Program-made: the position numbers and the translations under genes
The notes under the pieces: generated by a model
The model's database searches: none
The model's input: the letters and a program-made list of their open reading frames with translations, nothing else
Told to the model about the DNA's origin: nothing
Shown here: positions 2,520 to 60,405 of the stretch, one piece after another
Layout: each line of letters begins with the position of its first letter
Position numbering within the stretch: the first letter of the stretch is position 1
IMG/VR virus record: IMGVR_UViG_3300003691_000004
Span: 1,045 to 65,044 of that record
Origin: a virus
Lineage: Duplodnaviria > Caudoviricetes
Length of the DNA: 64,000 nt
Direction: 5' to 3' (one strand)

Positions 2520-2720
2520 GGTTAAAAATTAACCGCGTAATATCTGCATGGTAGGAAATCGACCGCGTAAAAAAGATGTACGGCTAGAAATTGGCCGCTT
2601 CGCAGATTTGGGAATTCATACGGTGGCCAGAATTTGGCCGCCTTGTTTTGAGGCGTACGAAAAGTGGACATAGGTAGATCTACCTACGTAGAATCACGTA
2701 GGCAAAACTACGTAGGTAGA
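2520..2720. repeat. left boundary element: four 15-bp imperfect palindromes, one arm of a 34-bp inverted repeat, TACGTAG cluster
   Basis: GGTTAAAAATTAACC 2520, GGTAGGAAATCGACC 2550, GGCTAGAAATTGGCC 2582, GGCCAGAATTTGGCC 2625; 2625-2658 is the reverse complement (29/34) of 60267-60300. Confidence 0.85.
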
Positions 2721-2910
2721 ACCCCCCATACCCATGTTTTGTGGGATGGATGCCGTGGGAGGCCTAGCGATTTTTTTGGTATTTTTAGGATCAAAAAGGT
2801 CTAATTACCGAACTAGGTACTAGTAATAGAGGCGATAGCCGCCAGGACGATCACGATAAGGACTAGCGAGGTGAATAATAGATCTCGCTCGAACTCTTTG
2901 CCTGGATCTT

Positions 2911-3114
2911 TCATTTAACCGACCCGTCTGACTCGACGACGTATATAGCCCCGTTTCCGTACTGCCCAGGCTTCTGAATGCCAAAGCCCTTAGCGAATAA
3001 GCGAGTCCCGTCTATCTTGAACTCTACCCTCGCTTGATCCTCGTATTTCCCAGGCCAGCGAAACACTTGGAAGTCTTGGTAGACGAGGGTTCCGGTTTTG
3101 ATTCGAATCTTCAT
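2911..3114 (-). CDS. hypothetical protein
   Basis: 67 aa ORF coupled (ATGA) to upstream gene. Confidence 0.6.
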   Translation of the reverse strand: MKIRIKTGTLVYQDFQVFRWPGKYEDQARVEFKIDGTRLFAKGFGIQKPGQYGNGAIYVVESDGSVK

Positions 3115-3341
3115 AACTCACAATCCCTCAAGGCCTTTTGGGCCATTAACTTCGTGTATTCTGCGTCATTGGGCCTGTAAGGCGGGTAAAGCTTTGTTGA
3201 GTAAGCGATTTCTAGCTGATCTTTGCTATAGATCGATATGGCAGCCTTGACGTAGCCCACGTGATAGGTGCATTTGAATCCGCGCTGCTCTAGAGCTTTG
3301 CAGAGTTCCTTGTAACTGTAACTGGGGTCAAGGTCGCTCAC
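3111..3341 (-). CDS. hypothetical protein
   Basis: 76 aa ORF in coupled minus-strand operon. Confidence 0.6.
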   Translation of the reverse strand: MSDLDPSYSYKELCKALEQRGFKCTYHVGYVKAAISIYSKDQLEIAYSTKLYPPYRPNDAEYTKLMAQKALRDCEL

Positions 3342-3559
3342 CTAGCCCCTTTGTCTATCGATTTGCCAAGCTTAATCCTACGCTTCTCCTGCTCCCTGAG
3401 AATCTCAGTCAGGCGAATGATCCAGACCTTCCCACCTATTTGCTCGCCTATTTGGCCCCTAGTACACATCTGGCGAATGCGACGCTCTGATACGCCTAAG
3501 GCCTCCGCTGTCTCTGAAGTGGAGAAGAGTGTTTTGACGCGAGGTTTCGTTATCTGCAT
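3338..3559 (-). CDS. helix-turn-helix DNA-binding protein (excisionase/HTH_17-like)
   Basis: FSTSETAEALGVSERRIRQMC...G...GKVWII winged HTH; AAGGAG RBS before ATG 3559; divergent from TerL. Confidence 0.8.
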   Translation of the reverse strand: MQITKPRVKTLFSTSETAEALGVSERRIRQMCTRGQIGEQIGGKVWIIRLTEILREQEKRRIKLGKSIDKGAR

Positions 3560-3614
3560 TGCGGCTCCTTTTAGTATAGGATACCCCACTACCCGTAAAG
3601 GAAGCGAGGAATCT

Positions 3615-5036
3615 TTGAGTAGTTTCGTAATCGATCCAGAAACCATGACAGGCCCGACAGGGCTAGCGATTAAGTTCACTCCGCTACAAAAGCAGTTCAT
3701 AACTTCACTTGTGCCGAGGATCGCCCTGTTTGGGGGCTTTGGGTCGGGGAAGACTTTTCCGTTCTGCATGAAGGCTGTAGTTTTGGCTATGGTTCACGGG
3801 AGAGGGTATCGAGGGCAGTTGATCTCGCCGACCTACGATATGTTCCAGAAGGTTTTGCTCCCCACAATACGCGACGACATTTTAATGAAGCTCTGCAACA
3901 CACAGGGCGAAACGCTGTGGGACTTCTGCGATTATTCACCGAGTAAGCGATCAATCACATTCCCTAATGGATTTGTCCTGCTCTTCGGCTCTGCGGACAA
4001 CCCTAACGCGACACGAGGGACGAACCTCGCCTTTATCGGGATAGACGAGGCGACACTTGTGGATAAATTTGAAGCTCTCTACATATCAGCTGGATCTCGC
4101 CTGCGTCGAGCTAGGCCGCACCCGGTTACTGGTGAGCCTATGGCGCAAATGTTCTTGTGTGGAACTCCTGAGCCTGAGGATCGAGTTCACCAGAAGTTTG
4201 TGATTGGTCCCGAGAAGGGCCGGAAGCGTTGGCGTGAAACTCACCAAGTGATCCGAATGTCCACTCTCATGAATCCGGGAATCGACGCTGACTTCATTCG
4301 ACAGCTTCACCTGGGAATTCCAGCCCCGCTTCTGCCTGCTTATTTGCACGGGCAGTCAATCGAGATTTCGACGGGCAGGTGTTATTACAACTTCGACCGA
4401 TCGGTGAATATTAAGCCGGAGGCTGTCTATAATCCCGGCCTCGATTTACATCTTAGTTGGGATTTCAACGTCGACCCAATGAGTGTAAGTGCTTGGCAGG
4501 TATGGGGTTACGGAAAACACAGCATAGCAATGTGCATAAAAGAAGTCTATCTTAGAAACTCAAATACTCCAGCTACCGCTAGAGAAATTGTCCGTGTCTT
4601 TGGTGGGCAGGGGTTAAAACACCAGCGAAATATCTTCATTTACGGTGACGCTTCAGCGGATAAGACTACTTCAGCCTACGACGAAATCGAGGAGTACATT
4701 GGAACGCATTTCCCCGGAACGATAACTAGGCGTGTTCCGAAGTCGAATCCTCGTCACTTACGTCGACTCAAGTCGGTCAACGCTCTATGTAGGAACGCTA
4801 ACGGGGACGTGAGGCTTGGAATTCACCCAGACTGCCGTTTCACTATCCGCGATTTAACGGAGCAGCGTATGGAGCCTACAGGGCGATCCAAAGCGAAGAA
4901 CCAAGAGGGCGACGACGGGACGACCCTTGGTCACTGTTCAGACAATGTCGACTACTTTATCGACACGCTGTTCAGATACACCCGGCCAGATACTCAGCGT
5001 CGACGAAGTAAAATGACTTCGCACATTCACCGTTGA
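3615..5036 (+). CDS. terL: terminase large subunit
   Basis: Walker A GGFGSGKT, RGTNLAFIGIDE Walker B, GTPE coupling motif, nuclease WDFNVDPM, YGDAS, HCSD; TTG start after GAGGA (ATG 3645 alternative). Confidence 0.95.
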   Translation: MSSFVIDPETMTGPTGLAIKFTPLQKQFITSLVPRIALFGGFGSGKTFPFCMKAVVLAMVHGRGYRGQLISPTYDMFQKVLLPTIRDDILMKLCNTQGETLWDFCDYSPSKRSITFPNGFVLLFGSADNPNATRGTNLAFIGIDEATLVDKFEALYISAGSRLRRARPHPVTGEPMAQMFLCGTPEPEDRVHQKFVIGPEKGRKRWRETHQVIRMSTLMNPGIDADFIRQLHLGIPAPLLPAYLHGQSIEISTGRCYYNFDRSVNIKPEAVYNPGLDLHLSWDFNVDPMSVSAWQVWGYGKHSIAMCIKEVYLRNSNTPATAREIVRVFGGQGLKHQRNIFIYGDASADKTTSAYDEIEEYIGTHFPGTITRRVPKSNPRHLRRLKSVNALCRNANGDVRLGIHPDCRFTIRDLTEQRMEPTGRSKAKNQEGDDGTTLGHCSDNVDYFIDTLFRYTRPDTQRRRSKMTSHIHR

Positions 5037-5099
5037 TTTTCGCTTAAGCGTTAATATTAACTGATTCCGGCCAAATGCCTAGTGTATTTGGTCGTTTTC

Positions 5100-5640
5100 T
5101 TTTTGCACTTATGACTTTTCGGGCATACCGCCTGCGGTACAGGCCGATTTTCTGTCTACGCAACACAAGGGCAGTACAGCTTTTTTATTTCGACATGTCC
5201 GCCGAGAATTGATTGTATCGAAATTGTATCAAGTCATAAACCCTTGTGGGGTATGCGAATGCGCCGATTGCAAAAAGCTCGATTCGTAGCAAATGCATAC
5301 CAATGCTCAACTTACAAAAATTGTTCACATTTGCTCGTTTTCGAGCACTTTTTAAGTCGTTACCATTGGCCAACTTACAGAAATTATTCACATTTCGTAA
5401 ACGCAATTCTGTCATAAGTGCTTTAACTGTATTCTTTTCCAAAAATTGTTCACAAGATTATAAATAATAGACACCCCCCCCCTCCAGAGCACTACCCTAG
5501 AAAAAAAATATGACCCTCTAAAAGTCATAAGTCTTATTTACTAACTACTAAAACCTCAAAAATGTGTTGCTACCACTTATTTTTCACATCCCTATTAATA
5601 AAATACCCAAAATTCTGTTGCTACCGATGTTTTTTCGCAC
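5100..5640. repeat. AT-rich iteron/DnaA-box-like repeat cluster (candidate replication origin, left half)
   Basis: caacttacaRaaattRttcacattt twice (5308, 5371), TTGTTCACA again ~5446, GTCATAAG/CTTATGAC several times, tgttgctacc twice, C and A homopolymer runs. Confidence 0.6.
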
Positions 5641-5654
5641 TAGAGATTTTCTAT

Positions 5655-5683
5655 TTCCAATAACAATCACACCTTAGTAAGAT
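5655..5683 (+). promoter_or_regulatory. possible sigma70-type promoter
   Basis: TTCCAA-17 bp-TAAGAT. Confidence 0.3.
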
Positions 5684-5815
5684 CGAAATTGCACCTTAGG
5701 TCGTAACACATTTACGGCACTCGTAGGCAGAACCCAACACTGTCTCTGAGCACTACAGGAGAGAGTTGGTTACTCACTCCGCATCTGTCATGGGGCATAC
5801 TCTGTGCCTCGTCTT

Positions 5816-5848
5816 GAACCTCTAATCCTTGCGATTAGGGGTTCTTTT
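5816..5848 (+). terminator. intrinsic terminator closing a structured leader or small RNA
   Basis: gaacctctaatc-cttgc-gattaggggttc-tttt. Confidence 0.75.
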
Positions 5849-5895
5849 GTGTCTACTCATACGTAGAGGTACTAACCCACTTGAAAGGTTTAATA

Positions 5896-6516
5896 ATGGA
5901 ACACGATCAGAGAGCCGATAAGGCCCTAGATTCATACGCTAAGACTTTAGGCCTGTCTAAGTTCTCCAAAGCAGACAAACAGCACCTAGACTCCCTGTCG
6001 GCCTCCCTACACCAGCAACACCGCGATGCTGCATCGCAGCCTAATAAACCTAACACGATAGTAAATCATGGTTCAACCATGAAGAAGTCTGAGAGTAGAG
6101 ACGGTTGGGTATCTAGAGGAAGAGCGGTAGCTGGATCAAAGGAGCATCAGTTCTTAATGCTCCTACGCACAACAAGCTCCCTAAGCGTCGCTGCGTGGTT
6201 AGGACTAGCAGACTTGTATAAGTCTAAGCAAGACTTCGCTAGGGCTGAGGTGGCCTATGTGGGGGCTAGGTACTGTGATTTGAATTCAAAAGACGTGATG
6301 AGGAAGTGGTTAGCTGTTTATACGATTAATCGTGGTACGAGTATGTCTAAGAGTCAGATTCTTTACGAAGCGAATATTATTAACCAAGCTATGGGAGATG
6401 TCATTTCTGCACCTGTGGATAGACTTCTACATGAGTTACAGATGTTAATCTTTTTCTTAGAGAGGGAGGAAGTGATAGATGCTACAGATGAGTCGATCAC
6501 ACTAATGAGCCAGTGA
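5896..6516 (+). CDS. hypothetical protein (possible single TPR-like motif)
   Basis: GAAAGG RBS before ATG 5896; AWLGLADLYKSKQDFARAEVAY resembles a TPR helix pair. Confidence 0.65.
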   Translation: MEHDQRADKALDSYAKTLGLSKFSKADKQHLDSLSASLHQQHRDAASQPNKPNTIVNHGSTMKKSESRDGWVSRGRAVAGSKEHQFLMLLRTTSSLSVAAWLGLADLYKSKQDFARAEVAYVGARYCDLNSKDVMRKWLAVYTINRGTSMSKSQILYEANIINQAMGDVISAPVDRLLHELQMLIFFLEREEVIDATDESITLMSQ

Positions 6517-6600
6517 CGGTTTTTACTCCCCTACTTTGAAGTCCCAAAATTCTCGGGGGAGAGCTACTTTCAAGTTAACAGCTTTTTGCACTTAGTAAGG

Positions 6601-6885
6601 ATGGAGCACATTATGTTAGAGGTAGGATCAACAGCAATAACACAGGAGTTAAATTCTGAGGGTGAGGAAATAGAGTTAGAGTGGGAAGTGATAGCTGTCA
6701 CACCTAACGCTCGCCAAACTGTGTACACAGTTACGTTTGCGAGATCTGATCTCCCCTTAGAGATGTTAATAGATCCACTAAAGACAGACTTTACGGAGGG
6801 TGATTTACCAGTGGGAATCCCTACAAATGAGAGCGCTCCTGACTTTCCACTCTTCACAACTGATTGTCGTAAGTACGTAAAATGA
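6601..6885 (+). CDS. acidic hypothetical protein
   Basis: ORF with TAAGGA/GGAG upstream; start 6601 or 6613. Confidence 0.6.
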   Translation: MEHIMLEVGSTAITQELNSEGEEIELEWEVIAVTPNARQTVYTVTFARSDLPLEMLIDPLKTDFTEGDLPVGIPTNESAPDFPLFTTDCRKYVK

Positions 6886-6894
6886 CAGAAATAA

Positions 6895-7500
6895 AATCGG
6901 CTAGGATTTTTTTTCTCTCCTGGCGTCTGGGGGGGGGTACCTACCAAAAAAAGAACATCGATGTGAGCGGAAATCATAACCGCAGCGCCGCGTTGCCGTT
7001 ACGACTTATTCTCCAGCACCCCCCTGTGAATAATTTACATAACCTCGCTGACCATCCCTGTTTGCGAAAGCGAGATTTAAAGCTAAATGTGAACAATAGT
7101 CATAAGTATACCCCCCAGAAGGCTGCACTTAGGTTAACACGAATTCACACTCGTCGGGAAACATTGAAGTCCCAAAAATCCGTTTGGAGATGTCATTTAC
7201 GAGATTTTCAACTTAAAGCCCAATTCAGGCACTCTTGCTGGGACAAAACTCTGATACATCTTCCGAAAAGTCCTAACACACGGCCCCTGGGACATGTACT
7301 TATGACTTTTTTCAACCCCTCCGCTAGGCCAATTGTATCAAAATGTACATTTACCCAGATCGCACACGAGCCCAGACGCCGAGCACCTAGAATTTCGTCC
7401 CCAATACATACCAACTCGTCACTTACGAAACACGAATTTGACGTAAAGCTATACCCCAAAGCAACGACTTACAACAACTCCATTCTACGCAACCTCACCA
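6895..7500. repeat. second copy of the origin-like motif cluster (right half, partly inverted)
   Basis: TGTGAATAA ~7025 and TGTGAACAA ~7088 (inverted boxes), GTCATAAGT ~7099, ACTTATGACTTTT ~7298, TTGTATC, CTACGCAAC, G and T runs mirroring the left half. Confidence 0.6.
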
Positions 7501-7518
7501 CAAAACGATAGGAACCCC

Positions 7519-9189
7519 ATGGACCCGAGTGAAATCATAGCAGCAGTCAACGAGGCGCTGCGAAGCGGCGAAGCCGCAACCCCGATCAATCTGCCAGCTG
7601 AGTTCGCTCAGGTGTTGGAGCAAGAACACCCGACGTATAAGTTGAATTTGAAGAAATGGCTGGATATCGACGCGATGGTAAACGATCAGGTCACAGGATC
7701 GGTCCTCGCTTCGTTTCTGCCTCGCGGCACTGACGAGCACCCGTCGGATTACGCTCGGCGAACATCTCTAGCGAATTTCAAAGGTGAGCTGTCGCCTGTG
7801 CTGACTCGCCTAGTTGGAGCGGTTCGCACGAAGCCGCCGACTCGCGACGAGAAGACACTGACTGACTATGGTGACTTCATGAAAAACGTGGACGGTCGCC
7901 ACACGACGCTTTCGAGGTTTATGGAGGACCGGGCGAAGCAGATCCTAGCCCTGGGCGTCGCGCCGTTCATTGTGGATCGCCCGATGGTGGGAGACACTGG
8001 GTTCGCCAGTGAGGAGACGTCGATGGGTTTCACCAGCGCTGAGCAGACTCGCAAGGTCGACGACAAAGAGATTCGACTAACGCCCTACAAGATTCACCAG
8101 GTGATTAACTGGGACCACGGGACGACCGGGGAGCTACATTGGGTCCGTATTCGAGAAGTCACCCAGAACTCAACGCCTTACGGAGCGCCGCAGACGGTGA
8201 CGATCTATCGAGACTGGGATCGCCAGAGCTGGCGAGTGTTCGAGGTCAAAGAGGTCGTGGTTAACGGTCAGCTTAAAAAAGTTGTGCAATTAGTAGGTCA
8301 GGGCGACCACTGGCTGGGAATGGTGCCAATGGTCATGCCGTTCCTAGAGTCGGACGAGCCGATGTCTTTCTTCTCGCCGATGTTCTACGCCGCGAAGCAC
8401 GACATCGACAGATTCAGATCCGACGCGGACTACCAGTACTCGCTTTGGGCGCACGGGAACCCGACCATAAAAAACATCACAAACGACACGCCGAAGCGGC
8501 TGGCTCTGGGGCCGAACGCGCAGATCGAGCGCAACCCTGAGTACGGTGAGGACGTGGAGTACCTCAAGATCCCGATGGACGCCTTCAAGGCGCAACTCCA
8601 AAACAAAGAGGATTCACTGACGGGGCTCCGCCGCGTCGCAGGCGTGGACACACTCTCGGGGCAGGACGACAGTGGGTCACAGAATGCTGTGTCGGGTCGC
8701 AGCCGCGCAGTCTCGTTCTCGATCTCGGAGAGTCGAATCTTGGGGCTTTTGAGTGAGGCGCTGTCAGCTGGCGAGAAACGATTGTTTGAGATCGGTGAGC
8801 GCTGGCGGAGTCCTCGAACGAATTTGACGCCGGACGACACGTTATTTACTGGCGAGACGGTGTACCCGAGGGCTTTTGGTTTGTCGGACGCGGAGCAATC
8901 GATCGCTCAGTGGTTGGAAACTAGAGATTCCATCAACTCGGAGCGCTTCGATCGTGAGCACCAGTATAAACTCATAGATATGACGCTTGGCGACATTTCG
9001 AAGAAAACCCGCGATCTGATCGTGAAAGAGATCAACGCGAACCCGATCCTAGGAGGATCGGCTGCACCAGACCCCTTCGAGGAAGAACTGAGCCTGGACG
9101 CGGACGACCGCGACCCTAGCGACGCTGCTGACGCAATGGCCGAAGCCGACGCGAAATCATTGGAAACGAAGCAGACAGAGAAAATGTAA
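7519..9189 (+). CDS. portal protein (DUF4055/SPP1-like)
   Basis: 556 aa after TerL; FLPR..E...YARR, VINW, GMVPMV, SG.SR motifs typical of this portal family; acidic C-terminus. Confidence 0.85.
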   Translation: MDPSEIIAAVNEALRSGEAATPINLPAEFAQVLEQEHPTYKLNLKKWLDIDAMVNDQVTGSVLASFLPRGTDEHPSDYARRTSLANFKGELSPVLTRLVGAVRTKPPTRDEKTLTDYGDFMKNVDGRHTTLSRFMEDRAKQILALGVAPFIVDRPMVGDTGFASEETSMGFTSAEQTRKVDDKEIRLTPYKIHQVINWDHGTTGELHWVRIREVTQNSTPYGAPQTVTIYRDWDRQSWRVFEVKEVVVNGQLKKVVQLVGQGDHWLGMVPMVMPFLESDEPMSFFSPMFYAAKHDIDRFRSDADYQYSLWAHGNPTIKNITNDTPKRLALGPNAQIERNPEYGEDVEYLKIPMDAFKAQLQNKEDSLTGLRRVAGVDTLSGQDDSGSQNAVSGRSRAVSFSISESRILGLLSEALSAGEKRLFEIGERWRSPRTNLTPDDTLFTGETVYPRAFGLSDAEQSIAQWLETRDSINSERFDREHQYKLIDMTLGDISKKTRDLIVKEINANPILGGSAAPDPFEEELSLDADDRDPSDAADAMAEADAKSLETKQTEKM

Positions 9190-52594: not shown

Positions 52595-54334
52595 ATGGCT
52601 GGGGATTTTCATTCTCTCTACCACGACGTAGTCAGGAAGTCTAAGAAGGCTGGCGGCGATTGGTGGAACGGGTTCTGCCCGTTCCACGAGGGTCCAAATT
52701 CTAAGTCTCCTAGCTTCGGGTGGAACGAGAGCACAGGCGGTTTCAACTGCCAGGGGTGTAATCGAACAGGCTCAGCGGTTGAGTTCTATGGACTAATAAA
52801 CATCTCGACCTACTCAGGGACCGATCAAGATAAAAAAGATGCATTCAAAGAGTTAGTGAAATTAATCCCGGCTATCGGTACGCCAGGGTTCAAAGCGAAT
52901 CAGAAAAGGGATTCTGGGAATGCTGTAGCGAAATCCAGTCTCCCAACTAAAGAAGAAATCGAGAAGTGGCATAGCGATCTACTCGCCAGCCCAGAGAAGT
53001 TAGACGTTCTCCTAAACAAACGTCACTGGTCACTCGAAGAGATAAAGAAGCGGCAAGTCGGCATTGCCAGCTTCAAAGAGAAGGACGGGGAAGCGTTCGT
53101 AGATCGCGAACGGTACTCGATCCCTATCTACTACGGCAGACGTCTCAAGAATGTGCGGAAGTACATCCCGGGCGCGAAGAAGCCGATAGTGAAAATTAAA
53201 GGTATTTTTGGACGCAATGAAAATCAGTGCTTCCCGGTAGAGGCGTTCGATTCAAAAACCGTTTTTTTGGTCGAAGGTGAACCGGATTGTTTAGCTGCTC
53301 GCTCGTGCGGTCTAAACGCCATGACCTTTACCGGGGGCGCTGGTAAAATACCTGTAGATTCAGAGTCGCTCTTTAAGGATCACAAGGTGGTCATTATTTA
53401 CGACTACGACTACGGGATTGACGCTAACGGAGCTGTCAAAACCAAAGGTCAAGTCGGAGCGATCCAGGTCGCTGAGAAATTAAAGGGACATGCCGAGAGC
53501 GTTCGGATCATGGACATCGGCCCGCTAGTCGACGTCACTCTGCACGAGAAAGATATCACCGACGTCATCGCTAAAATCGGTGGCATAGGCCTCAAGCGAT
53601 GGATTAAAAAAGAGCTTCCCAACGTACCAGTGTTCCAGGCGAAAGCTTCGGACACTAGCGACGCCAGGGAGGTGTCTTTCTCCAGCGCGACATCTGCGGA
53701 AAATGTCAGCGCGTCGCATAAGATATCATTCTCAGCCATCGTTATGGGTGCAGCTCAACAGCCATACGATGCGATCTCTAAGTTGTCGGCGACGTGCGAG
53801 CAGGCTGGATCAAAGGACAAGTGCGCTTACTGCCCACTAGCTCTAGGTAAGGCGGTCGCTGATCTAGACTTGCTTAGCGATGACATGCTCGCCCAGATTC
53901 GAACAACCAAAGGGATTAAGAATAAAACCCTACAGCGCGGCGCAGGGTTCGGTTGCGAGGCTTGGCGTATCGACCCACAGGCGACAGAGCGAACGTCGAT
54001 TCACGAGGTTATCATCGGCCCGGAAATAGACAGGTCAATCGTAGATGACGACGCGCTAGGTGACGGCGAAATGGGGATCAATCAGAGGACTGTATTCGTG
54101 CACATCAACGGGCAAGGTCCACTCCAACTAAATAACTCATACAGATTCGAAGGTGTGTCTGTACCGCAGCCATGGAATCAGGCTGTGACACACATCTTTG
54201 ACGTGGCGAAGAAGGTCGATAGCGACGTCGAGACTTTTGATCTTTCAGAAGAAGAGCAAGAATCACTAAGGCATTGGGTCGAGGCCATTGGTGGTGTGAA
54301 CGCAGAACCAACAACAGAGAGGCTTGAATACTAA
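52595..54334 (+). CDS. DNA primase (CHC2 Zn finger + TOPRIM) with C-terminal MCM-N-like domain
   Basis: CPFH...SF....FNCQGC, VEGEPD, YDYD, KDITD; C-terminal C...C..C...C cluster and OB-like Y.FEG...P.P. Confidence 0.85.
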   Translation: MAGDFHSLYHDVVRKSKKAGGDWWNGFCPFHEGPNSKSPSFGWNESTGGFNCQGCNRTGSAVEFYGLINISTYSGTDQDKKDAFKELVKLIPAIGTPGFKANQKRDSGNAVAKSSLPTKEEIEKWHSDLLASPEKLDVLLNKRHWSLEEIKKRQVGIASFKEKDGEAFVDRERYSIPIYYGRRLKNVRKYIPGAKKPIVKIKGIFGRNENQCFPVEAFDSKTVFLVEGEPDCLAARSCGLNAMTFTGGAGKIPVDSESLFKDHKVVIIYDYDYGIDANGAVKTKGQVGAIQVAEKLKGHAESVRIMDIGPLVDVTLHEKDITDVIAKIGGIGLKRWIKKELPNVPVFQAKASDTSDAREVSFSSATSAENVSASHKISFSAIVMGAAQQPYDAISKLSATCEQAGSKDKCAYCPLALGKAVADLDLLSDDMLAQIRTTKGIKNKTLQRGAGFGCEAWRIDPQATERTSIHEVIIGPEIDRSIVDDDALGDGEMGINQRTVFVHINGQGPLQLNNSYRFEGVSVPQPWNQAVTHIFDVAKKVDSDVETFDLSEEEQESLRHWVEAIGGVNAEPTTERLEY

Positions 54335-55921: not shown

Positions 55922-56542
55922 ATGAAAATCGAAGACCTGGTAGGCAAACGTAAACAGCTTCGCGAGGACTCACCCTTGAAGGGTTGCGGCTATGCGTCAA
56001 TGGAGTTCTGCACTGACGAATTTAAGATCATTAAGTTGGCAGACGAGAAGCACCTCGTTGGACTACTTGGTAAGGTTGCGCCAGACCTAGTCCCAGTACT
56101 CGAAACGATCGAGGGCATAGGACCAAAGCGTTCTTATGTGGCGTGGGTTTCCGCGACAATGCGGGCGCTCACGCTACGTGGCGTTGAACTCGATTGGTTC
56201 TTAGAGTACACGCTCGCAGGTAAGGACGATCTTGGTGGCATGAAGGTTGATGGTGACGATCCAGACGCTGCGGCAGAACGCAAACGTCAAAAAGCGATCG
56301 CTCCGATCATCATGGTGATGACTAAGAAGAACGTCCCCGTCGAGCAAGTGGTTAAGATGCTCGTCGTCGGCCTTGGTGAGAAGAAGGACAAGGACGAGTG
56401 GAAGGATGAAAAAGTCGTTACTGCAAAAGTTGTAGGTTTTATCGCTTCATGCGACGAAGGTCGGAGTGATTGGACTGTCGTCCGTGACGGAAGCAAAGTG
56501 ACCCTGGTTGAGAAAACACAGTTCGGGGGATTAGATGAGTAA
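55922..56542 (+). CDS. hypothetical protein
   Basis: GAGGG RBS, 206 aa. Confidence 0.7.
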   Translation: MKIEDLVGKRKQLREDSPLKGCGYASMEFCTDEFKIIKLADEKHLVGLLGKVAPDLVPVLETIEGIGPKRSYVAWVSATMRALTLRGVELDWFLEYTLAGKDDLGGMKVDGDDPDAAAERKRQKAIAPIIMVMTKKNVPVEQVVKMLVVGLGEKKDKDEWKDEKVVTAKVVGFIASCDEGRSDWTVVRDGSKVTLVEKTQFGGLDE

Positions 56543-56906
56543 TCTATCAGACGCCATCGATAGTTTGCGCGAGGCGATCCAAATACTAGGTGACACCTGC
56601 AATCCAGACCTCCGCCTGCGAGTCACGAACCTCTGCGAAGCTTCCAAGATCCAGCTGGAGAAATCTGGTGTCGAGCACCAGCGCAGTACCGGGAGCGGTG
56701 GCGGCACTTCGAGCGGACCGAAGAAGAAGGCGGTATCCGAAGAGGAGATCGAACTCACAAATAAGATGTTAGATAAGCTGTCCAGTATGGACATCCAGGC
56801 TAGCGAGTTCATAGACTCGTTGGCTACCGGGTTTGATAAGTACGGATCGTTGACGATTGGCCAATACAACGCCTTGAAAAAGGTGTACGCTAAGGAAGTC
56901 GGGTAG
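56535..56906 (+). CDS. hypothetical protein
   Basis: FIDSL...F...G.LT..Q motif. Confidence 0.65.
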   Translation: MSNLSDAIDSLREAIQILGDTCNPDLRLRVTNLCEASKIQLEKSGVEHQRSTGSGGGTSSGPKKKAVSEEEIELTNKMLDKLSSMDIQASEFIDSLATGFDKYGSLTIGQYNALKKVYAKEVG

Positions 56907-56996
56907 GCAACCCCCGACAAGGTTGATCCGAACACCCGTCCGGCGTTTGATGCGCGTCGGGCGGTTTAGACAATCTTTGGCATGATTGACCCTTCG

Positions 56997-57031
56997 GCCC
57001 ACTCTTCGTTAGCGCGTTGAGTGGGTTTTTT
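56997..57031 (+). terminator. terminator at convergence point
   Basis: gcccactc...gagtgggt then T run. Confidence 0.7.
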
Positions 57032-57773
57032 ATTTATTGAAGTCAGCCGCGTCGTCCGCTTCAAACTCCTCATTGTCCTTGTCGTCGTCCCCACCCTCAT
57101 CGTCCTCGGCCATGATCTTGTCCATGAGCACTTTCGCGTCTGGGATGTCGACCTCTGGCGCGTCAGCCGGATCAGTGTAGGCCTCCTTGAAGAACCCACT
57201 GAGATTGATATCGATCACGTCGACGTCTTCAGCCTCGTCGATGACCATTAGGCCGCTCAACGTCGCCTCATATTTGTCCCAGTCGAGTATCTGTCGGATC
57301 AGAGGTGAGACCTCACCCAGAACACTCTCGTATTTAACCTCGGTGGTCGTGCTCTCCAACCCGTCGTTGCGTTTGTACTTGCTAATCTTGAGACGCTTGA
57401 CACCTTTCCCTCCACTGTCCGCGTCCTCCTGCATCGCCTTCTGTACTAACCCCAAGAGGATCTGCTTCGCATTGTTCGCGGCGTCGGTGTGTTTGCGAAG
57501 TCCGTCAGCACGGCTCAGCTTCGGGGCCATGTATTTCCCGTACAGGTCCATTCCGTGACGAACCTGCCTGGGCGAGATGTTCTTTCTGTTTGGGTACTTC
57601 TCGTTGTACTCGTTAGCGATCTGCTCGATCGTCTTCGAACCAACGGTGCTCTCCTGCCACCAACCACGATAAATAGCTCTGCGCTCCGGCGTGATCGACA
57701 CACTTGCGGTCTTGCTGGTGGCAGACTTCAGGAGTGATCTCGGTTTAGGTGGCTTCGGTGGCTTACCTGTCAT
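57030..57773 (-). CDS. putative terminase small subunit
   Basis: N-terminal HTH (TIEQIA...ISPRQV), helical middle, L.GL motif, acidic tail; downstream of ParB. Confidence 0.5.
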   Translation of the reverse strand: MTGKPPKPPKPRSLLKSATSKTASVSITPERRAIYRGWWQESTVGSKTIEQIANEYNEKYPNRKNISPRQVRHGMDLYGKYMAPKLSRADGLRKHTDAANNAKQILLGLVQKAMQEDADSGGKGVKRLKISKYKRNDGLESTTTEVKYESVLGEVSPLIRQILDWDKYEATLSGLMVIDEAEDVDVIDINLSGFFKEAYTDPADAPEVDIPDAKVLMDKIMAEDDEGGDDDKDNEEFEADDAADFNK

Positions 57774-57901
57774 TTCTTAGCGTTCGCTTTCTCCTTGAGC
57801 TGAACCAAAGCCTTCGCCATAAACGCACGCTTAGCGAGGTCTTTGTCGCCAGTCTTCCGAGCTTCAGCCAACATCGAATCGATCTTCTTTGAAACGTCCA
57901 T
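57770..57901 (-). CDS. small hypothetical protein (43 aa)
   Basis: MDVSKKIDSM..., coupled at both ends. Confidence 0.6.
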   Translation of the reverse strand: MDVSKKIDSMLAEARKTGDKDLAKRAFMAKALVQLKEKANAKK

Positions 57902-58158
57902 TACACAGTCCCGTCGTAGACACGCCACTTGCCGTTGATCGCATCTTCTCCAACGATGGAGTAGAGCTTTGCGAATCGGGCGAGATGTTCGCCAGTAATC
58001 CTAACATCCTTGAGCAAACCGTCGTCGTCCATGACTAAGATCTGCACCTGACCGACCCCGTGGATGTGGTAGATCATACCAGCCGCGTCGCCGTCGTGCT
58101 CTTGGCACCTGGGGTGCACGCCTCGGTAGCCTCTTATCTGCTGAATTGAGTTGTCCAT
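57901..58158 (-). CDS. hypothetical protein
   Basis: TAATG coupling. Confidence 0.6.
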   Translation of the reverse strand: MDNSIQQIRGYRGVHPRCQEHDGDAAGMIYHIHGVGQVQILVMDDDGLLKDVRITGEHLARFAKLYSIVGEDAINGKWRVYDGTV

Positions 58159-58913
58159 TATTTCCTCGCGTCTAAGTACTCAGCGCAGATCATCGCGATC
58201 GCCGTAGCGACCGTTGATCCACCAGCGTTATTAACCTGCATCCACTCCGTCGCAGCTGCCTGGACGGTTTCGTAGTGGTCTTCTTGAATGGCGACCTTGT
58301 AGAATTGTATTGGTGCGTCAGGAATCCTCGGCGGCTCAGCGGCGCGGCGTCGCTCAGTCTCACCACGCTCAATCTCGTCGTCGTCCACACCACCCATGGC
58401 GTCAAAGCTACTGGCGTCCGGTTCAACCTCTATCGCCACAGGATTCTCTCTCGCTGGGGTAGGTGAAGCCAAGTTGTCGCTCAGGTCAAAAGCCTCCTGA
58501 ATGAAACTTGCGCTCTCGTACTCATCAAAACCGGTGACGTCAAGGTTAAACGAGTCGTCGTTCAAGGCGCACATGAGATCGCTCAGGACGTCGTCGTCCC
58601 ATTCGGCTAGTTCACCACACCGATTGTCTGCGATGCCGCGAGCGGTGGCTGAGGTGTCGTCCTCGTCCACGATAACAGCAGCGATTTGATCCCAACCAAG
58701 CAGCTTCGCGGCTTCGCAGGTTCCGTTCCCAGCTCGGATAACCATTCCGTCACGCTGAACAACGATCGGTCGGTGCTGGCCGAACTCTTCGAGCGAGAGT
58801 TTTATCGCAGCGATGTTTTTGGTGCTGTGTTTGCGGGCGTTGGTCGGGTCGTAAGTTAATTCTGAGATGTTAATCAACAGAGGCTTAAGGCCCTCTACTA
58901 CGTTAGACGTCAT
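58158..58913 (-). CDS. ParB/Srx N-terminal domain protein
   Basis: DPTNARKH, SLEEFGQ..PIVV, AGNG, ADNR..ELAEWD. Confidence 0.9.
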   Translation of the reverse strand: MTSNVVEGLKPLLINISELTYDPTNARKHSTKNIAAIKLSLEEFGQHRPIVVQRDGMVIRAGNGTCEAAKLLGWDQIAAVIVDEDDTSATARGIADNRCGELAEWDDDVLSDLMCALNDDSFNLDVTGFDEYESASFIQEAFDLSDNLASPTPARENPVAIEVEPDASSFDAMGGVDDDEIERGETERRRAAEPPRIPDAPIQFYKVAIQEDHYETVQAAATEWMQVNNAGGSTVATAIAMICAEYLDARK

Positions 58914-59418
58914 TAGTCTTTGGACCTTCCGTTATCAATGAAACAGCCCGCTCGTCTCCACGGACAAATAGGGCGTTAGGGCAAAATAGCCCAGCGTCAA
59001 GCTCTCGGAGATACACGACCTCGCAGCCATCACCAGCGACGTAAATAGCATGGTCAACAAGCTCTAGATTTAACCTATTCGCCACGAAGGCCGCCACCAT
59101 GGTCATGTCTTTGTCCTCTTTGCTGAACTCCGCGACTCCGCTTGGGTGGTTGTGGAAGAGCGCGAACTTAGTCCACTCGTCAAACTCCAGCAGTCGCCTA
59201 AGATCAACGCTGACACACTTGGGTCCTTTCCTAACAGAGATGTCTATCACCTTCCCGCCACCCACCGCTAGACATTTCTCTATCTGTGCTTCGTTTGCCG
59301 CTTCAAGGGTTCTAAATACAGTGGGCAACAGGGGTCCGACACCGCTAAAGAAGTTACTTCCCTTCCCTCGGTTGCCAAACGCAGCAATAGCCGGATATCT
59401 TTCCTCGTTCTCGCACAT
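58903..59418 (-). CDS. JAB/RadC-like protein
   Basis: HNHPSG...S.ED...T...LVDH. Confidence 0.85.
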   Translation of the reverse strand: MCENEERYPAIAAFGNRGKGSNFFSGVGPLLPTVFRTLEAANEAQIEKCLAVGGGKVIDISVRKGPKCVSVDLRRLLEFDEWTKFALFHNHPSGVAEFSKEDKDMTMVAAFVANRLNLELVDHAIYVAGDGCEVVYLRELDAGLFCPNALFVRGDERAVSLITEGPKTNDV

Positions 59419-59642
59419 ACTGAAATCCCTCCTGATTGAGTTATCTGTTGAGACCTAAATCGCTGCAACTTCGACAGCGTACCGATCTTTGTCTTAAGCT
59501 CTATGCCTACGAAAAAACCCCCAGGTAGACAGCACAAAATGTCAGGTGTGCCGGACTCTACAGGGGGGCAGGTTTTAACCGCGTAACAGCCGTTAGAACG
59601 CAAGTGGTTGAGCGTCCAACTCGCGAATCCGCTTTCCTTCAT
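59280..59642 (-). CDS. VRR-NUC nuclease
   Basis: E, GTPDI, F.GIELK, G.LS.LQ. Confidence 0.85.
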   Translation of the reverse strand: MKESGFASWTLNHLRSNGCYAVKTCPPVESGTPDILCCLPGGFFVGIELKTKIGTLSKLQRFRSQQITQSGGISVCARTRKDIRLLLRLATEGREVTSLAVSDPCCPLYLEPLKRQTKHR

Positions 59643-60009
59643 TCGTCGACAACCTATACAGCGCAGGGTCGCAGCGTCGTTGCACTTCTATTTCGCCGCG
59701 TAGTTCTGTCTCTAGGTTAGAGACCTTTATTTCTTCGCGGCCATGCGGGCGAGTTTGAGCGGTTACTTTCTTACCCTCTGATCGTAGACCTTGCGCCAAG
59801 ACACGAGCAGTCTCAATAGCTTGCACTCTATCGGGGGCTCTGTAAACAGAATAGTCTCCGTCGATATCGATCTCACTTGTCCCGTCTTCAGCTTCGCAGG
59901 CAGGCCAGATCTCAATGCGCCAATCGTAAGACGTGTTCTCTTCTGAAGATTCGTTGCGGTCGACGTTCGGGAATACTTGGATGAAGATATCGTTTAACAT
60001 TGTGTCCAA
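59593..60009 (-). CDS. hypothetical protein
   Basis: First gene of minus-strand operon; start 60009 or 60000. Confidence 0.55.
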   Translation of the reverse strand: MDTMLNDIFIQVFPNVDRNESSEENTSYDWRIEIWPACEAEDGTSEIDIDGDYSVYRAPDRVQAIETARVLAQGLRSEGKKVTAQTRPHGREEIKVSNLETELRGEIEVQRRCDPALYRLSTNEGKRIRELDAQPLAF

Positions 60010-60194
60010 CTTTCATTTGCTAAAATTAATGGTCATTTTGAAAAGGGCATCGCAGATCATATCCCCTCACAGGGTGACTTTTGATCTCAAAACCAAAAAA
60101 TGGTTTTCAAAAATGCTCTAGAGCCAGGGATGATGTAAAAAAAAAGGGGGTATGGCGCACCTCCGGGCGCTTCGCGCGGCTGTCCAGGATTTGG

Positions 60195-60405
60195 ACATAC
60201 GTAGTTTTACGTACGTAGTTTTACGTACGTAGAAATACCTACGTAGTTCTACGTAGTACGAAAAGTGTACGCCTCAAAATGAGGCGGCCAGATTTTGACC
60301 GCGTCAAAACGAGGCGGGCGTTTTTTGACCGCGTCAAAATAAGGCGGGCGTTTTTTGACCGTCCACTTTCTGGCCATGCAAAAATTGCATGGTTAAAAAA
60401 TAGCC
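60195..60405. repeat. right boundary element: TACGTAG cluster, 34-bp inverted repeat arm, 30-bp tandem repeat x3 with 15-bp palindrome-like boxes
   Basis: gcStcaaaaYRaggcggSc...tttgacc x3 (60271-60360), gtccactttctggcc 60361, ggttaaaaaatagcc 60391. Confidence 0.9.

What the first reader, a model, noticed from the sequence alone, without database searches (positions are those of the whole stretch)
2520..60405. Mirror-image boundary elements sit exactly at both composition switches
Seen: from outside inward, both ends show the same order: an array of 15-bp GG-N11-CC palindrome-like boxes at about 30-bp period (2520, 2550, 2582, 2625; 60286, 60316, 60346, 60391), a 34-bp inverted repeat (2625-2658 vs 60267-60300, 29/34), a TACGTAG cluster (2685-2716; 60198-60256) and CCATACCC next to a C/G run. 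GTACGAAAAGTG occurs at both. No transposase, integrase or invertase is in the window. Inference: these are phased binding arrays for one protein marking both ends of a long terminal repeat (terminase cut sites) and/or an injection-stop signal. Together with the flank composition this may be an undescribed staged-entry/packaging system. Alternative: recombination sites inverting the flank relative to the core.
Basis: partly seen in the sequence, partly recalled or inferred. Interest (0 to 1): 0.85.

Follow-up and report, generated by a model that had tools for sequence, protein, structure and literature searches.

The report
Mirror-image ends of a phage gene cassette
Two roughly 250-base mirror-image repeat regions in an uncultured phage genome mark the exact ends of one 7.4-kb block of early genes whose DNA composition is foreign to the rest of the phage, so they look more like the ends of an inserted or swapped gene cassette than like DNA-packaging ends, although that could not be tested with reads.

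Summary
The record is a circular-looking 65,044-bp phage assembly. Its "terminal repeat" is only a 24-bp overlap inside a coding 15-bp tandem repeat. The two "flanks" are therefore ONE contiguous 7.4-kb segment.

Its ends are diverged terminal inverted repeats of about 250 bp. Each has a 34-bp tip (29/34), then 4-5 dyad boxes about 30 bp apart, then an inward promoter-like motif. The composition switch falls on the tips to within about 50 bp.

New points:
- The same 7-mer GAAAAGT abuts both tips on the outside in DIRECT orientation, which is the geometry of a target-site duplication or attL/attR.
- The TACGTAG clusters read as two halves of one array.
- The segment has its own codon and oligonucleotide "dialect", absent from all five relatives tested.
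- No recombinase was found in 59 ORFs scanned.

Best reading (0.4): these are the ends of a horizontally acquired, non-autonomous cassette carrying DUF6744-MoxR-VWA genes.

Rivals:
This is untestable here because no sequencing runs were listed. The nearest cultured TerL relatives package by headful.
- Looping or regulatory arrays.
- A scar of an inversion.
- An invertible switch.

The scan has noted composition-deviant early islands in terminal repeats, and array pairs enclosing gene slots, on other DNA (e1-206656, e1-196807, e1-2426145).

The parts
60267..60300 (+). Right-boundary 34-bp inverted-repeat tip. This is one end of the cassette; it starts GTACGCCTCAAAA and contains the hairpin GCCTCAAAATGAGGC.
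   Evidence: It is 29/34 complementary to 2625-2658. The composition sign change falls here.
2625..2658 (+). Left-boundary 34-bp inverted-repeat tip, the other end of the cassette.
60260..60266 (+). 7-mer GAAAAGT immediately outside the right tip. It is the direct-repeat partner of 2659-2665.
   Evidence: Read. The 12-mer GTACGAAAAGTG is direct at 60256 and 2655.
2659..2665 (+). 7-mer GAAAAGT immediately outside the left tip, in the same orientation as 60260-60266.
   Evidence: Read.
60270..60405 (+). Right subterminal array. It has a 30-bp unit x 3.1, with boxes at 60286, 60316, 60346, 60361 (other strand) and 60391. It contains the 17-bp palindrome TTTTGACCGCGTCAAAA twice.
2520..2640 (+). 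Left subterminal array of four GG-N11-CC boxes (2520, 2550, 2582, 2625), spaced 30, 32 and 43 bp. It is co-linear with the right array when inverted.
   Evidence: TRF does not detect it.
60191..60256 (+). Right half of the TACGTAG cluster (5 units, 14-bp period). It lies outside the cassette and has core-like composition.
2664..2720 (+). Left half of the TACGTAG cluster (3-4 units). It lies outside the cassette. A sigma-70-like TGGACA-18-TAGAAT lies at 2665-2694.
60148..60155 (+). GGGTATGG next to a G run and an A9 run. It is the weak mirror partner of CCATACCC at 2726-2733.
2726..2733 (+). CCATACCC next to a C6 run. A T7 run follows at about 2773.
60480..60493 (+). Inward-facing promoter-like motif TTGACATCTCAAC, about 215 bp from the right tip. 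It is followed by a 29-bp copy of the VWA leader (60498-60526, inverted copy of 62590-62618).
2423..2495 (-). Inward-facing copies of the same motif (2423-2435 and 2483-2495), about 165-235 bp from the left tip. A further copy at 1927-1939 lies just upstream of the first cassette gene.
   Evidence: The motif has 16 matches against 1.67 expected, and 8 of the 16 lie in the cassette.
60612..60636 (-). Strong intrinsic terminator (11-bp GC stem plus T9) ending the cassette operon just inside the right array.
61217..62578 (-). VWA-domain protein (cassette gene).
   Evidence: PF13519. It is 34% identical to the L093 homologue.
62647..63792 (-). MoxR-type AAA+ ATPase (cassette gene).
   Evidence: PF20030, 1.5e-42. 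The best foreign homologue is 34% identical.
63881..64000 (-). 3' part of the DUF6744 gene, which runs across the contig ends (contig 1-966). It holds the 15-bp tandem repeat where the assembly was cut.
480..1796 (-). 438-aa Ala/Asp-rich ORFan. It is the first gene of the cassette operon; the ORF could start at 1880.
   Evidence: Only itself was found among 1.84 billion representatives.
3338..3559 (-). 73-aa HTH_17 / excisionase-like protein, divergent from TerL. It lies outside the cassette and is a candidate array binder.
   Evidence: Homologues are in the same place in 6 of the 9 related loci examined, and in L093 and L095 (2 of 3 further loci).
3615..5036 (+). Large terminase subunit. The TTG start at 3615 is inferred from the homologue alignment and the RBS.
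58158..58913 (-). ParB-like protein. It lies outside the cassette, has core composition, and is a second candidate array binder.
   Evidence: phrog_620, 7.8e-36.

Best explanation
The two elements are the diverged terminal inverted repeats (about 250 bp) of one discrete cassette. Tip to tip, the cassette is 7,412 bp: window 60267-64000, then contig 1-1044, then window 1-2658.

The cassette is a horizontally acquired early-gene operon. It carries a 438-aa ORFan, two small ORFs, DUF6744, a MoxR ATPase, a VWA protein, two more small ORFs and a terminator. It sits in the middle of a dyad-symmetric TACGTAG array of the phage.

Each end reads, from outside to inside: a 34-bp tip; 4-5 dyad-symmetric boxes about 30 bp apart, which I take as sites for a dimeric DNA-binding protein loading cooperatively; and an inward-facing promoter-like motif.

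The same 7-mer abuts both tips in direct orientation. I infer that the cassette arrived by a cut-and-join reaction at its tips. That reaction would be either transposition with a 7-bp target duplication, or site-specific recombination with a 7-bp overlap (attL/attR geometry). The enzyme would have been supplied in trans, because the cassette and the phage encode no recognisable recombinase. This would make it a non-autonomous 'mobile insertion cassette'-like element in a phage.

Shown: the inverted repeats, the direct 7-mer, the split array, the sharp compositional discontinuity, and the absence of a recognisable recombinase.

Inferred: the insertion event itself, protein binding to the boxes, and which enzyme acted.
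For: 1. Terminal inverted repeats. The inverted alignment of the inner 290 bp scores 81 vs 21.6 +/- 3.2. The whole elements score 111 vs 21.1 +/- 3.3. Co-linear k-mers run out to about 225 bp.

2. Flanking direct repeat. GAAAAGT lies directly outside both tips in direct orientation. For fixed tips, a 7/7 match has probability about 6e-5 (my arithmetic).

3. Composition break at the tips.
- It falls within about 50 bp of the tips.
- The segment differs from the core AND from the adjacent same-strand block 57030-60009. CAG, CAC, CTC and GGA have O/E about 0.4-0.5; CGCG is 4.2x and CATC 4.3x.
- Codon use differs: GAT 62% vs 18-30%, GGC 58% vs 23-26%, GCT 9% vs 33-36%.
- Dinucleotides differ: CG 1.66, AG/CT 0.63.

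4. The dialect is absent from relatives G001, L093, L099 and L003.

5. The TACGTAG clusters outside the tips are orientation-neutral and core-like. Together with the mirrored GGGTATGG/CCATACCC they read as two halves of one dyad-symmetric site.

6. The 438-aa gene has no homologue in 1.84 billion representatives. The cassette MoxR has nothing above 34% identity apart from its own cluster.

7. No recombinase was found in 59 ORFs, which fits a non-autonomous element.
Against: 1. Gene order. DUF6744-MoxR-VWA followed by the 120-aa nuclease gene is conserved in relatives that have no such repeats (G001; L093). The trio therefore sits in its family-typical relative position. A random insertion would reproduce that only if the target array happened to lie upstream of that operon and the orientation (1 in 2) was right. 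Replacement of a resident module by recombination would explain it better than transposition.

2. No second copy of the tip or of the array unit was found anywhere. The 22-specified-base tip pattern gave 0 hits in viral, metagenome and genome contigs. The 22-base array-unit pattern gave 0 hits in genome contigs. Mobility is therefore not demonstrated, and no empty site was seen.

3. Relative G001 also has inverted long-period arrays (49 bp x 15 and x 3.3 or more) bracketing 1.1 kb of NATIVE-looking genes between direct 10-bp arrays upstream of TerL. Other relatives have unrelated arrays in the same place. This hints at a family-wide functional architecture rather than a one-off insertion.

4. 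The island's strong codon-context bias (CATC z +9.8, GCAGC 1 vs 15.7 expected; core controls have at most one |z|>4 each among the 4-mers) could reflect selection on this DNA rather than foreign origin.

5. MoxR and VWA are fast-evolving across the family (23-34% identity between lineages). Low identity alone is therefore no evidence of xenology.
Confidence: 0.4

Rival explanations
1. Long direct terminal repeat. The 7.4-kb segment is present at both ends of the packaged DNA and collapsed to one copy in the assembly. The mirror elements, with the direct 12-mer GTACGAAAAGTG, are the terminase recognition and cut sites at the two repeat boundaries. The right element may also act as a pause or stop for staged DNA entry, as in T5.
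For: - Long repeats bounded by short inverted repeats are known in Twort-like phages (PMC7596081, passage). T5-like phages have paired 131-bp inverted repeats 1.85-4.26 kb apart around poorly conserved ORFs in the terminal repeat, next to tandem arrays (10.1101/866236, passages).
- The segment lies just upstream of TerL.
- Its operon, and then the next operon (138 aa to 247 aa), are transcribed away from the left tip in one direction. This would suit transcription in the order of entry.
- A strong terminator sits just before the right array.
- A direct 12-mer at both boundaries would suit one asymmetric cut site.
- Codon-context bias beyond codon usage could be motif purging of the first-entering DNA. 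The scan noted a similar island in a Wifcevirus repeat (e1-206656, unchecked).
- Relatives carry arrays upstream of TerL, and 7 of 13 related contigs end in them.
Against: - There is no read evidence at all.
- The record's 'DTR' is a 24-bp overlap in a tandem repeat.
- Contigs ending in arrays are what tandem repeats do to short-read assemblies.
- Nearest cultured TerL relatives (24-27% identity) include headful packagers (PMC10783031). No genome above 77 kb appeared among the 15 best and 40 spread rows shown, so no T5-sized phage was seen.
- 0 of 8 DnaA boxes fall in the elements.
- The TACGTAG units lie before the 12-mer on the right and after it on the left. The two boundaries therefore look like two halves of one site, not two complete sites.
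- The compositional dialect is absent from relatives with the same genes.
Confidence: 0.2
2. Paired cis-regulatory or architectural arrays, unrelated to mobility or packaging. A dimeric phage protein (candidates: the 73-aa HTH, ParB, or a small cassette protein) coats both arrays and pairs them. This loops out and insulates or silences the early operon, in the manner of mirrored operator sets flanking an exchangeable control region. The foreign composition would then come from a module swap by recombination in the flanking arrays.
For: - Dyad-symmetric 15-17-bp boxes lie at about 30-bp phasing in both arrays.
- Promoter-like motifs lie next to the arrays.
- A ParB-like gene and a conserved HTH gene lie nearby.
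- G001 has its own inverted arrays bracketing two native genes, and L012 has many inverted and direct promoter-like repeats in the same region.
- Conserved gene order across the right boundary fits a module swap.
Against: - The exact 7-mer direct repeat at the tips is left unexplained.
- No repressor-like gene was found in the cassette. Pfam found nothing for the 116-aa and 77-aa ORFs, and the two small ORFs at the right end (64 aa and 66 aa) were not scanned.
- The promoter-like motifs face inward, not outward from operators.
- The boxes have no -10 partner by my reading.
- L093 has the same genes and no arrays.
Confidence: 0.15
3. Scar of an old rearrangement. The about 10.5-kb early block is inverted in this phage compared with relatives. 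An inversion with staggered breaks, or fold-back template switching at a repeat array, left an inverted duplication of one operon-start module at both ends of the segment. The copies have since drifted and have no present function as a pair.
For: - The block 57030 to 2600 is inverted relative to G001, L003, L010, L015 and L093.
- The left element lies at one inversion junction.
- The right end carries an inverted copy of an operon-start (promoter-like motif plus VWA leader) that faces no credible gene.
- The copies are only about 65-85% alike.
Against: - The other inversion junction (about 56.95 kb) has no related repeat.
- The right element lies inside the inverted block, at the conserved VWA/120-aa junction.
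- It explains neither the composition break at the tips nor the direct 7-mer.
Confidence: 0.12
4. Invertible segment. The 34-bp inverted repeats are crossover sites for a site-specific invertase that flips the 7.4-kb segment.
For: Inverted repeats of 34 bp bracket a gene block. Inward promoters at both ends could read out differently after a flip.
Against: - No serine or tyrosine recombinase was found in 59 ORFs.
- The arms are 5/34 diverged.
- The 7-mer next to the arms is direct. For a spacer, that would give excision, not inversion.
- The composition break would be unexplained.
Confidence: 0.04

Closest known systems
IS-derived mobile insertion cassettes (MICs) / non-autonomous transposons (concept: PMC3913671 and PMC4337579, seen only in the search listing and abstracts)
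   Same: Passenger genes lie between terminal inverted repeats. A short direct repeat abuts both ends. There is no transposase inside. The composition is foreign.
   Different: The ends here are about 250 bp long, with 4-5 phased boxes, which resembles Tn7, Mu, Tn552 or IS21 ends as I recall them. No parent IS or second copy with these ends was found anywhere. The host replicon is a phage without an integrase. The gene order matches that of relatives.
attL/attR of integrative elements that use a recombinase supplied in trans (IMEX elements, Acinetobacter dif modules; recalled, and scan note e1-4182882)
   Same: Inverted arms flank an identical 7-bp core in direct orientation at both junctions. 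Joining the outer half-sites would give a dyad-symmetric 'empty' site. No recombinase lies in the element.
   Different: I saw no similarity to dif (comparison with a recalled consensus only). No host genome is known. No circular or empty form has been observed.
LTR boundaries of Twort-like (Kayvirus) staphylococcal phages (PMC7596081, passage read)
   Same: Short inverted repeats sit at the two extremities that separate a multi-kb terminal repeat from the unique genome. Early genes lie in the repeat, and the structural genes including TerL begin nearby (the gene layout is recalled).
   Different: Those are 12-bp perfect repeats conserved across a genus, with termini shown experimentally. Here the elements are 34-bp tips plus arrays, are unique to one genome, and have no termini data. 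The TerL is unrelated.
T5 injection-stop region: IRC-spacer-IRD and IRD'-spacer-IRC' (bioRxiv 10.1101/866236, abstract and passages read)
   Same: Two inverted repeats of more than 100 bp lie kilobases apart, bracket poorly conserved early ORFs, and sit next to tandem arrays. A protein-binding array function has been proposed.
   Different: The T5 arms carry paired DnaA boxes, whereas none occur here. Both T5 arms lie inside a proven 10-kb terminal repeat. The T5 repeats are conserved across 25 phages, whereas here the sequence is unique.
Lambda OL/OR operator sets flanking the immunity region (recalled, not from a call)
   Same: Mirror-image sets of dyad-symmetric sites flank an exchangeable module of different composition. 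The two sets pair by looping.
   Different: The lambda operators overlap outward promoters, and the repressor gene lies between them. Here the promoter-like motifs face inward and no repressor was identified.

Membership tests
Transposon / mobile insertion cassette | Terminal inverted repeats at both ends | tested here: met
   The tips match 29/34. The inverted alignment of the inner 290 bp scores 81 vs 21.6 +/- 3.2.
Transposon / mobile insertion cassette | Direct target-site duplication abutting both ends | tested here: met
   GAAAAGT lies at 60260-60266 and 2659-2665, directly outside the tips. Whether it arose by duplication cannot be shown.
Transposon / mobile insertion cassette | Other copies of the ends, or a parent element with a transposase, elsewhere | tested here: not met
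   The tip pattern gave 0 hits in viral, metagenome and genome contigs. The array-unit pattern gave 0 hits in genome contigs. One 17-base hit lay in a coding region and looks like chance. No transposase was found in 59 ORFs.
Transposon / mobile insertion cassette | Empty site in a relative or in reads | not testable with these tools
No runs were listed.
Long direct terminal repeat (T5 / Twort-like type) | Twofold read depth over the repeat and read ends at its boundaries | not testable with these tools
   The look-up of sequencing runs listed no run.
Long direct terminal repeat (T5 / Twort-like type) | Terminase related to those of exact-end DTR packagers | tested here: inconclusive
   The nearest cultured hits are 24-27% identical: Jerseyvirus, Kagunavirus, Dhillonvirus and Vibrio SSP002-like phages. 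Jerseyvirus packages by headful (PMC10783031). The identity is too low to transfer the mechanism.
Long direct terminal repeat (T5 / Twort-like type) | Boundary motifs conserved among relatives | tested here: not met
   The left element gave no match in 4 related records. Relatives have arrays at the same position but of unrelated sequence, and L093 has none.
T5 injection-stop signal | Paired DnaA boxes in each inverted-repeat arm | tested here: not met
   TTWTNCACA has 8 matches in the window, none within 2400-2800 or 60100-60500.
Site-specific invertible segment (Gin/Hin/Cin type) | Invertase gene in or next to the segment | tested here: not met
   No Resolvase or Phage_integrase hit in 59 ORFs.
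Site-specific invertible segment (Gin/Hin/Cin type) | Both orientations present in a population | not testable with these tools
   No reads are available.
ParB-parS centromere / spreading arrays | ParB-family protein plus palindromic sites it binds (and usually ParA) | tested here: inconclusive
   A ParB-like gene is present. The palindromic boxes TTTTGACCGCGTCAAAA are present. No ParA was found in the scanned ORFs. Binding was not tested.
Known structured RNA | Rfam match at gathering score | tested here: not met
   Nothing reached gathering score in 59900-61300 or 1800-3700. The sub-threshold hits sit on the terminator at about 60600-60700 and on a hairpin at about 61160-61290, not on the elements.

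The most novel reading that the evidence does not exclude
The segment is a first-entry terminal repeat of a new phage family. Its two boundaries would carry mirror-image protein-loading arrays around an identical 7-nt cut core. Its DNA would have been purged or recoded, down to codon context, because it is the first DNA exposed in the cell. That would be an undescribed staged-entry and packaging design, with a MoxR-VWA conflict module as its pre-early cargo.
Probability: 0.15. Interest if true: 0.8.

Novelty: new variant of a known kind. Interest (0 to 1): 0.55.

Why it matters
If the cassette reading holds, this is a clean example of a recombinase-less, inverted-repeat-bounded gene cassette moving a MoxR-VWA 'conflict' module into a phage with no recognisable integrase. 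That would be a route of phage mosaicism distinct from homologous or illegitimate recombination. The ends would give a sequence handle to look for such cassettes.

If the terminal-repeat reading holds instead, it would give a new phage family with a T5-like pre-early domain whose boundaries are marked by symmetric arrays. The composition of that domain would record selection on first-entering DNA.

Read mapping to the source sample would separate the two readings. The oligonucleotide 'dialect' of the segment is stronger than codon usage can explain, and is unexplained in either case.

Tried and rejected
- Read evidence: the look-up of sequencing runs on window 1-6000 listed no run.
The 71-kb contig of TerL homologue P0002 (55% identity), and the 3-6 other contigs that hold identical proteins, could therefore not be read.
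- A single-protein TerL scan of viral contigs found nothing. The alignment-based scans gave only relatives with 53% TerL identity or less.
- DNA searches with the tip and array patterns: 0 hits in viral, metagenome and genome contigs. One coding-region chance hit came from the 17-base pattern. There were 18 single, non-arrayed hits of the 17-bp palindrome in viral contigs, near chance and not followed up.
- blastn of both halves of the segment against plasmids and phages gave nothing, except a tandem-repeat hit in a Mesomycoplasma adhesin gene. megablast of 2000-8000 against phages gave nothing.
- Donor search: the cassette MoxR has no homologue above 34% identity apart from its own cluster. 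The 438-aa ORF has none at all. Its ESM Atlas model is poor (pLDDT 0.49) and all TM scores are 0.28 or lower, so the integrase-like rows there mean nothing.
- Rfam: nothing at the elements.
- Terminator reading of the tips: the hairpins are only moderate (z -1.6 to -4.9). A much better terminator lies at 60612-60636, so I do not read the tips as terminators.
- Operator-over-promoter reading of the boxes: I found no -10 partner at the right distance from the TTGAC halves, by reading the sequence.
- Second inversion junction (56850-57090): no related repeat.
- Periodicity of TACGTAG units across a hypothetical empty site is irregular by my arithmetic, so it neither supports nor refutes insertion.
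- Supplementary files of papers were not consulted. The supplements of 10.1101/866236 describe further T5 repeats that I did not see.

Full report
WHAT THE RECORD IS

The window is bases 1045-65044 of a 65,044-bp virus record that IMG/VR classes as having direct terminal repeats. That repeat is only a 24-bp identity of the two contig ends. It lies inside a 15-bp tandem repeat that encodes AVEPV repeats of a gene. The assembly is therefore simply circular-looking, with uncertain repeat copy number at the cut.

The genome is a tailed phage.
- TerL is at 3615-5036. The start is placed from 14 homologues of 461-483 aa and an RBS.
- Portal, scaffold and major capsid genes, and helicase/primase genes, lie on the + strand.
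- A minus-strand block runs from 57030, across the contig ends, to about 3559.
- No tRNA was found.
- The nearest cultured relatives are remote: TerL 24-27% identity and capsid 25-30%.

THE OBSERVATION

- The left element aligns with the reverse complement of the right one over about 210 bp. The score is 111, against 21.1 +/- 3.3 (maximum 34) in 300 shuffles.
- When the parts inside and outside the 34-bp tips are separated, the inner 290 bp align inverted with score 81 (shuffles 21.6 +/- 3.2) and direct with only 42.
- The outer flanks align equally well inverted (60) and direct (58), because their TACGTAG units are palindromic.
- Co-linear exact words run from the tip (GTACGCCTCAAAA, at distance 0 in both) to GACATCTCAA at about 216-225 bp.
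- The right array is a clean 30-bp x 3.1 tandem repeat, and the right TACGTAG cluster is a 14-bp x 4.1 repeat.
- The left array is too degenerate for TRF, although its four boxes are plain to the eye.
- GG-N11-CC as a bare pattern occurs 200 times in the window, so it is not itself evidence.

The 12-mer GTACGAAAAGTG is direct at both boundaries. Dissected against the inverted repeat, it consists of the last four bases of the left arm plus GAAAAGT(G) on the left, and GTAC plus GAAAAGT plus the first base of the right arm on the right. So the 7-mer GAAAAGT lies immediately outside both tips in the same orientation (2659-2665 and 60260-60266).

Inverted arms abutted by an identical short direct repeat is the geometry of a transposon with a target-site duplication. 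Equally, it is the geometry of attL/attR around a 7-bp overlap.

Joining the outer half-sites would give a dyad-symmetric site. It would read TCTACGTAGTAC, then the 7-mer, then GGACATAGGTAGA, in the middle of a single TACGTAG array. That array is itself flanked by GGGTATGG/CCATACCC and by A/T runs.

COMPOSITION

The segment between the arms (7,344 bp; 7,412 bp tip to tip) is a sharp island.
- A 4-mer log-likelihood ratio was trained on its interior (ends excluded) against the core. It flips within one 200-bp step of each element.
- A 3-mer profile changes sign at about 60250-60300 and 2600-2660, which is at the tips.
- The island differs from the core and also from the adjacent minus-strand block 57030-60009, which is core-like.
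- CAG, CAC, CTC and GGA are at O/E 0.38-0.47. CGCG is 4.2x and CATC 4.3x.
- Dinucleotides: CG 1.66, GC 1.44, AT 1.43, AG/CT 0.63, AC/GT 0.72.
- Codons: GAT 62% vs 18-30%, CAT 61% vs 19-26%, GGC 58% vs 23-26%, GCT 9% vs 33-36%, TTG 38% vs 16-24%.
- Synonymous codons were permuted among positions, which keeps proteins and codon usage fixed. This still leaves extreme context bias: CATC z +9.8, CGGA z -6.2, and GCAGC/GCTGC 1 observed vs 15.7 expected. Three core gene sets of like size have a z spread of about 1.3-1.45 and at most one |z|>4 each among the 4-mers.
- None of G001, L093, L099 or L003 shows this dialect anywhere.

CONTENT OF THE SEGMENT

In its direction of transcription (minus strand, from the left element) the segment holds:
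- several copies of a promoter-like motif TTGACATCTCAAT (16 matches in the window vs 1.67 expected, 8 of them in the segment);
- a 438-aa Ala/Asp-rich ORFan, which matches only itself among 1.84 billion representatives and has no usable fold;
- 77-aa and 116-aa ORFs with no Pfam hit;
- a DUF6744 protein;
- a MoxR-type ATPase (PF20030, 1.5e-42) and a VWA protein;
- two small ORFs;
- a strong terminator at 60636-60612.

The right end also carries an inward-facing copy of the promoter-like motif, followed by a 29-bp inverted copy of the VWA leader. It faces no credible gene.

No transposase, integrase or invertase appeared in 59 distinct ORFs scanned.

RELATIVES

Thirteen viral-contig loci with TerL 47-53% identical were found, and more in metagenomes.

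G001, a complete 65.2-kb record, is syntenic over most genes. There, and in L093, the order DUF6744/MoxR-VWA, 120-aa nuclease, 247 aa, ParB, then (HTH on the other strand) TerL lies on one strand. L003, L010 and L015 show the TerL-proximal part of it. Three things follow.
1. The whole about 10.5-kb early block of this phage is inverted relative to its relatives.
2. The trio sits in its family-typical position relative to the nuclease gene.
3. MoxR and VWA evolve fast in the family (23-34% identity between lineages), so low identity is not evidence of foreign origin.

The element sequences themselves are not found in relatives. Arrays at the same place are common, however. Seven of 13 related contigs end in tandem arrays 0.9-1.7 kb upstream of TerL, each lineage having different units.

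G001 has, upstream of TerL, the following layout:
- a 10-bp x 23 array;
- a 49-bp x 15 array;
- a palindrome;
- two small genes with native promoters;
- a 10-bp x 10 array;
- the 49-bp array again in INVERTED orientation (3.3 or more copies, at the contig cut);
- a 10-bp x 23 array in direct orientation.

L012 has many direct and inverted promoter-like repeats there. L093 has none.

So 'short-period arrays outside, inverted long-period arrays inside, genes between' recurs in a second lineage. There the cargo is native.

WEIGHING THE READINGS

The cassette reading is the only one that explains the direct 7-mer (about 6e-5 for fixed tips), the split array and the tip-exact composition break together. 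The lack of a recombinase fits a non-autonomous element.

Its weak points are these:
- the conserved gene order across the right boundary, which argues for replacement of a resident module or a site-specific landing, not random transposition;
- the absence of any second copy of the ends;
- the G001 architecture, which hints at function.

I give it 0.4.

The terminal-repeat/staged-entry reading has genuine precedents.
- T5-like phages have two 131-bp inverted repeats 1.85-4.26 kb apart around poorly conserved ORFs, next to tandem arrays (10.1101/866236, abstract and passages).
- It gives a coherent picture of entry-ordered transcription from the left tip.

It has no data behind it here.
- No run was listed.
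- The nearest cultured TerL relatives include proven headful packagers (PMC10783031, passages; Kenya-K57 and K53 are among my hits).
- DnaA boxes are absent from the elements.
- The two boundaries look like halves of one site.

I give it 0.2. Pure regulatory or looping arrays get 0.15, a rearrangement scar 0.12, and an invertible switch 0.04.

COMPARISON AND NOVELTY

In form this is closest to a mobile insertion cassette or an att-bounded element mobilised in trans. In position and array style it resembles the repeat-boundary regions of T5-like and Twort-like phages.

It fails one defining test of each family that could be tested: no other copies or parent element, no DnaA boxes, no invertase, and no conserved boundary motif.

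I class it as a new variant of a known kind. It carries an unexplained and unusually strong sequence dialect.

Searches for 'DUF6744' in the paper library returned nothing. I made no broader claim-of-absence searches.

Earlier notes of this scan (unchecked AI notes) describe composition-deviant early islands in terminal repeats (e1-206656), the T5 stop region (e1-196807), array pairs enclosing gene slots (e1-2426145) and dif-bounded modules (e1-4182882). They shaped the list of rivals but are not evidence.

Noticed in passing
contig 1-63 and window 63927-64000 (contig ends): The record's 'direct terminal repeat' is a 24-bp overlap within a 15-bp tandem repeat (about 4-5 or more copies at each end). 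The repeat encodes AVEPV repeats near the acidic C-terminus of the DUF6744 protein. Copy number is therefore uncertain, and the label says nothing about the packaged ends.
   Followed up: yes
window 60301-64000, contig 1-1044, window 1-2624: The segment has an oligonucleotide 'dialect' far beyond codon usage. After synonymous-codon permutation, CATC/GATG has z +9.8, CGGA/TCCG has z -6.2, and GCWGC is 1 observed vs 15.7 expected. The dinucleotides AG/CT and AC/GT are depleted, while GA/TC and CA/TG are not. The cause is unknown (foreign signature or selection against motifs).
   Followed up: partly
window 57030-64000 and 1-2600: The whole early block (247 aa, ParB, RadC-like, VRR-NUC-like nuclease, VWA, MoxR, DUF6744) is inverted relative to G001, L093, L003, L010 and L015, where it is co-directional with TerL.
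   Followed up: partly
G001 (L083:1-2300 reversed and L086 end; rotated coordinates 6650-9260): The relative has very large tandem arrays upstream of TerL. They are 49 bp x 15 and, inverted, x 3.3 or more, flanked by 10-bp x 23 C-rich arrays in direct orientation. They bracket two small genes, one of which looks DUF2958-like to me (recalled, not tested). The assembly is cut inside the 49-bp array (82-bp overlap).
   Followed up: partly
window 3338-3559 (-) and 3615-5036 (+): A small excisionase-like HTH gene lies back to back with TerL, with only about 55 bp between the starts. The mechanical TerL ORF overlaps it. The arrangement is conserved in 6 of 9 related loci and in L093 and L095, 2 of 3 further loci.
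   Followed up: partly
window 60498-60526 vs 62590-62618; 2041-2060 vs 60664-60683: There are further inverted repeats inside the segment. One is a 29-bp pair (28/29) linking the right subterminal region to the VWA leader. The other is a perfect 20-bp pair about 400-600 bp inside the two ends.
   Followed up: partly
window 480-1796 (-): The 438-aa Ala/Asp-rich protein has an internal 75-bp-spaced direct repeat (1340-1380 / 1415-1455). It has no homologue at E<=0.001 among 1.84 billion cluster representatives.
   Followed up: yes
L095:175-1017 and 1875-2717: One relative carries two tandem ParB-like paralogues upstream of TerL, each preceded by an about 120-bp direct repeat (84% identical).
   Followed up: no
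window 4058, 4531, 5384, 5580, 7025: Five of the 8 consensus DnaA boxes in the window cluster between 4.0 and 7.1 kb (TerL to the portal region). Overall there are 8 matches vs 3.55 expected.
   Followed up: no
G001, about 15 or more sites (for example rotated 8113-8271, 9588-9738, 20731-20874, 52819-52970): The relative has a 100-150-bp promoter-plus-leader module dispersed through its early regions at 90-97% identity. This is the likely source of many of its direct and inverted repeats.
   Followed up: no
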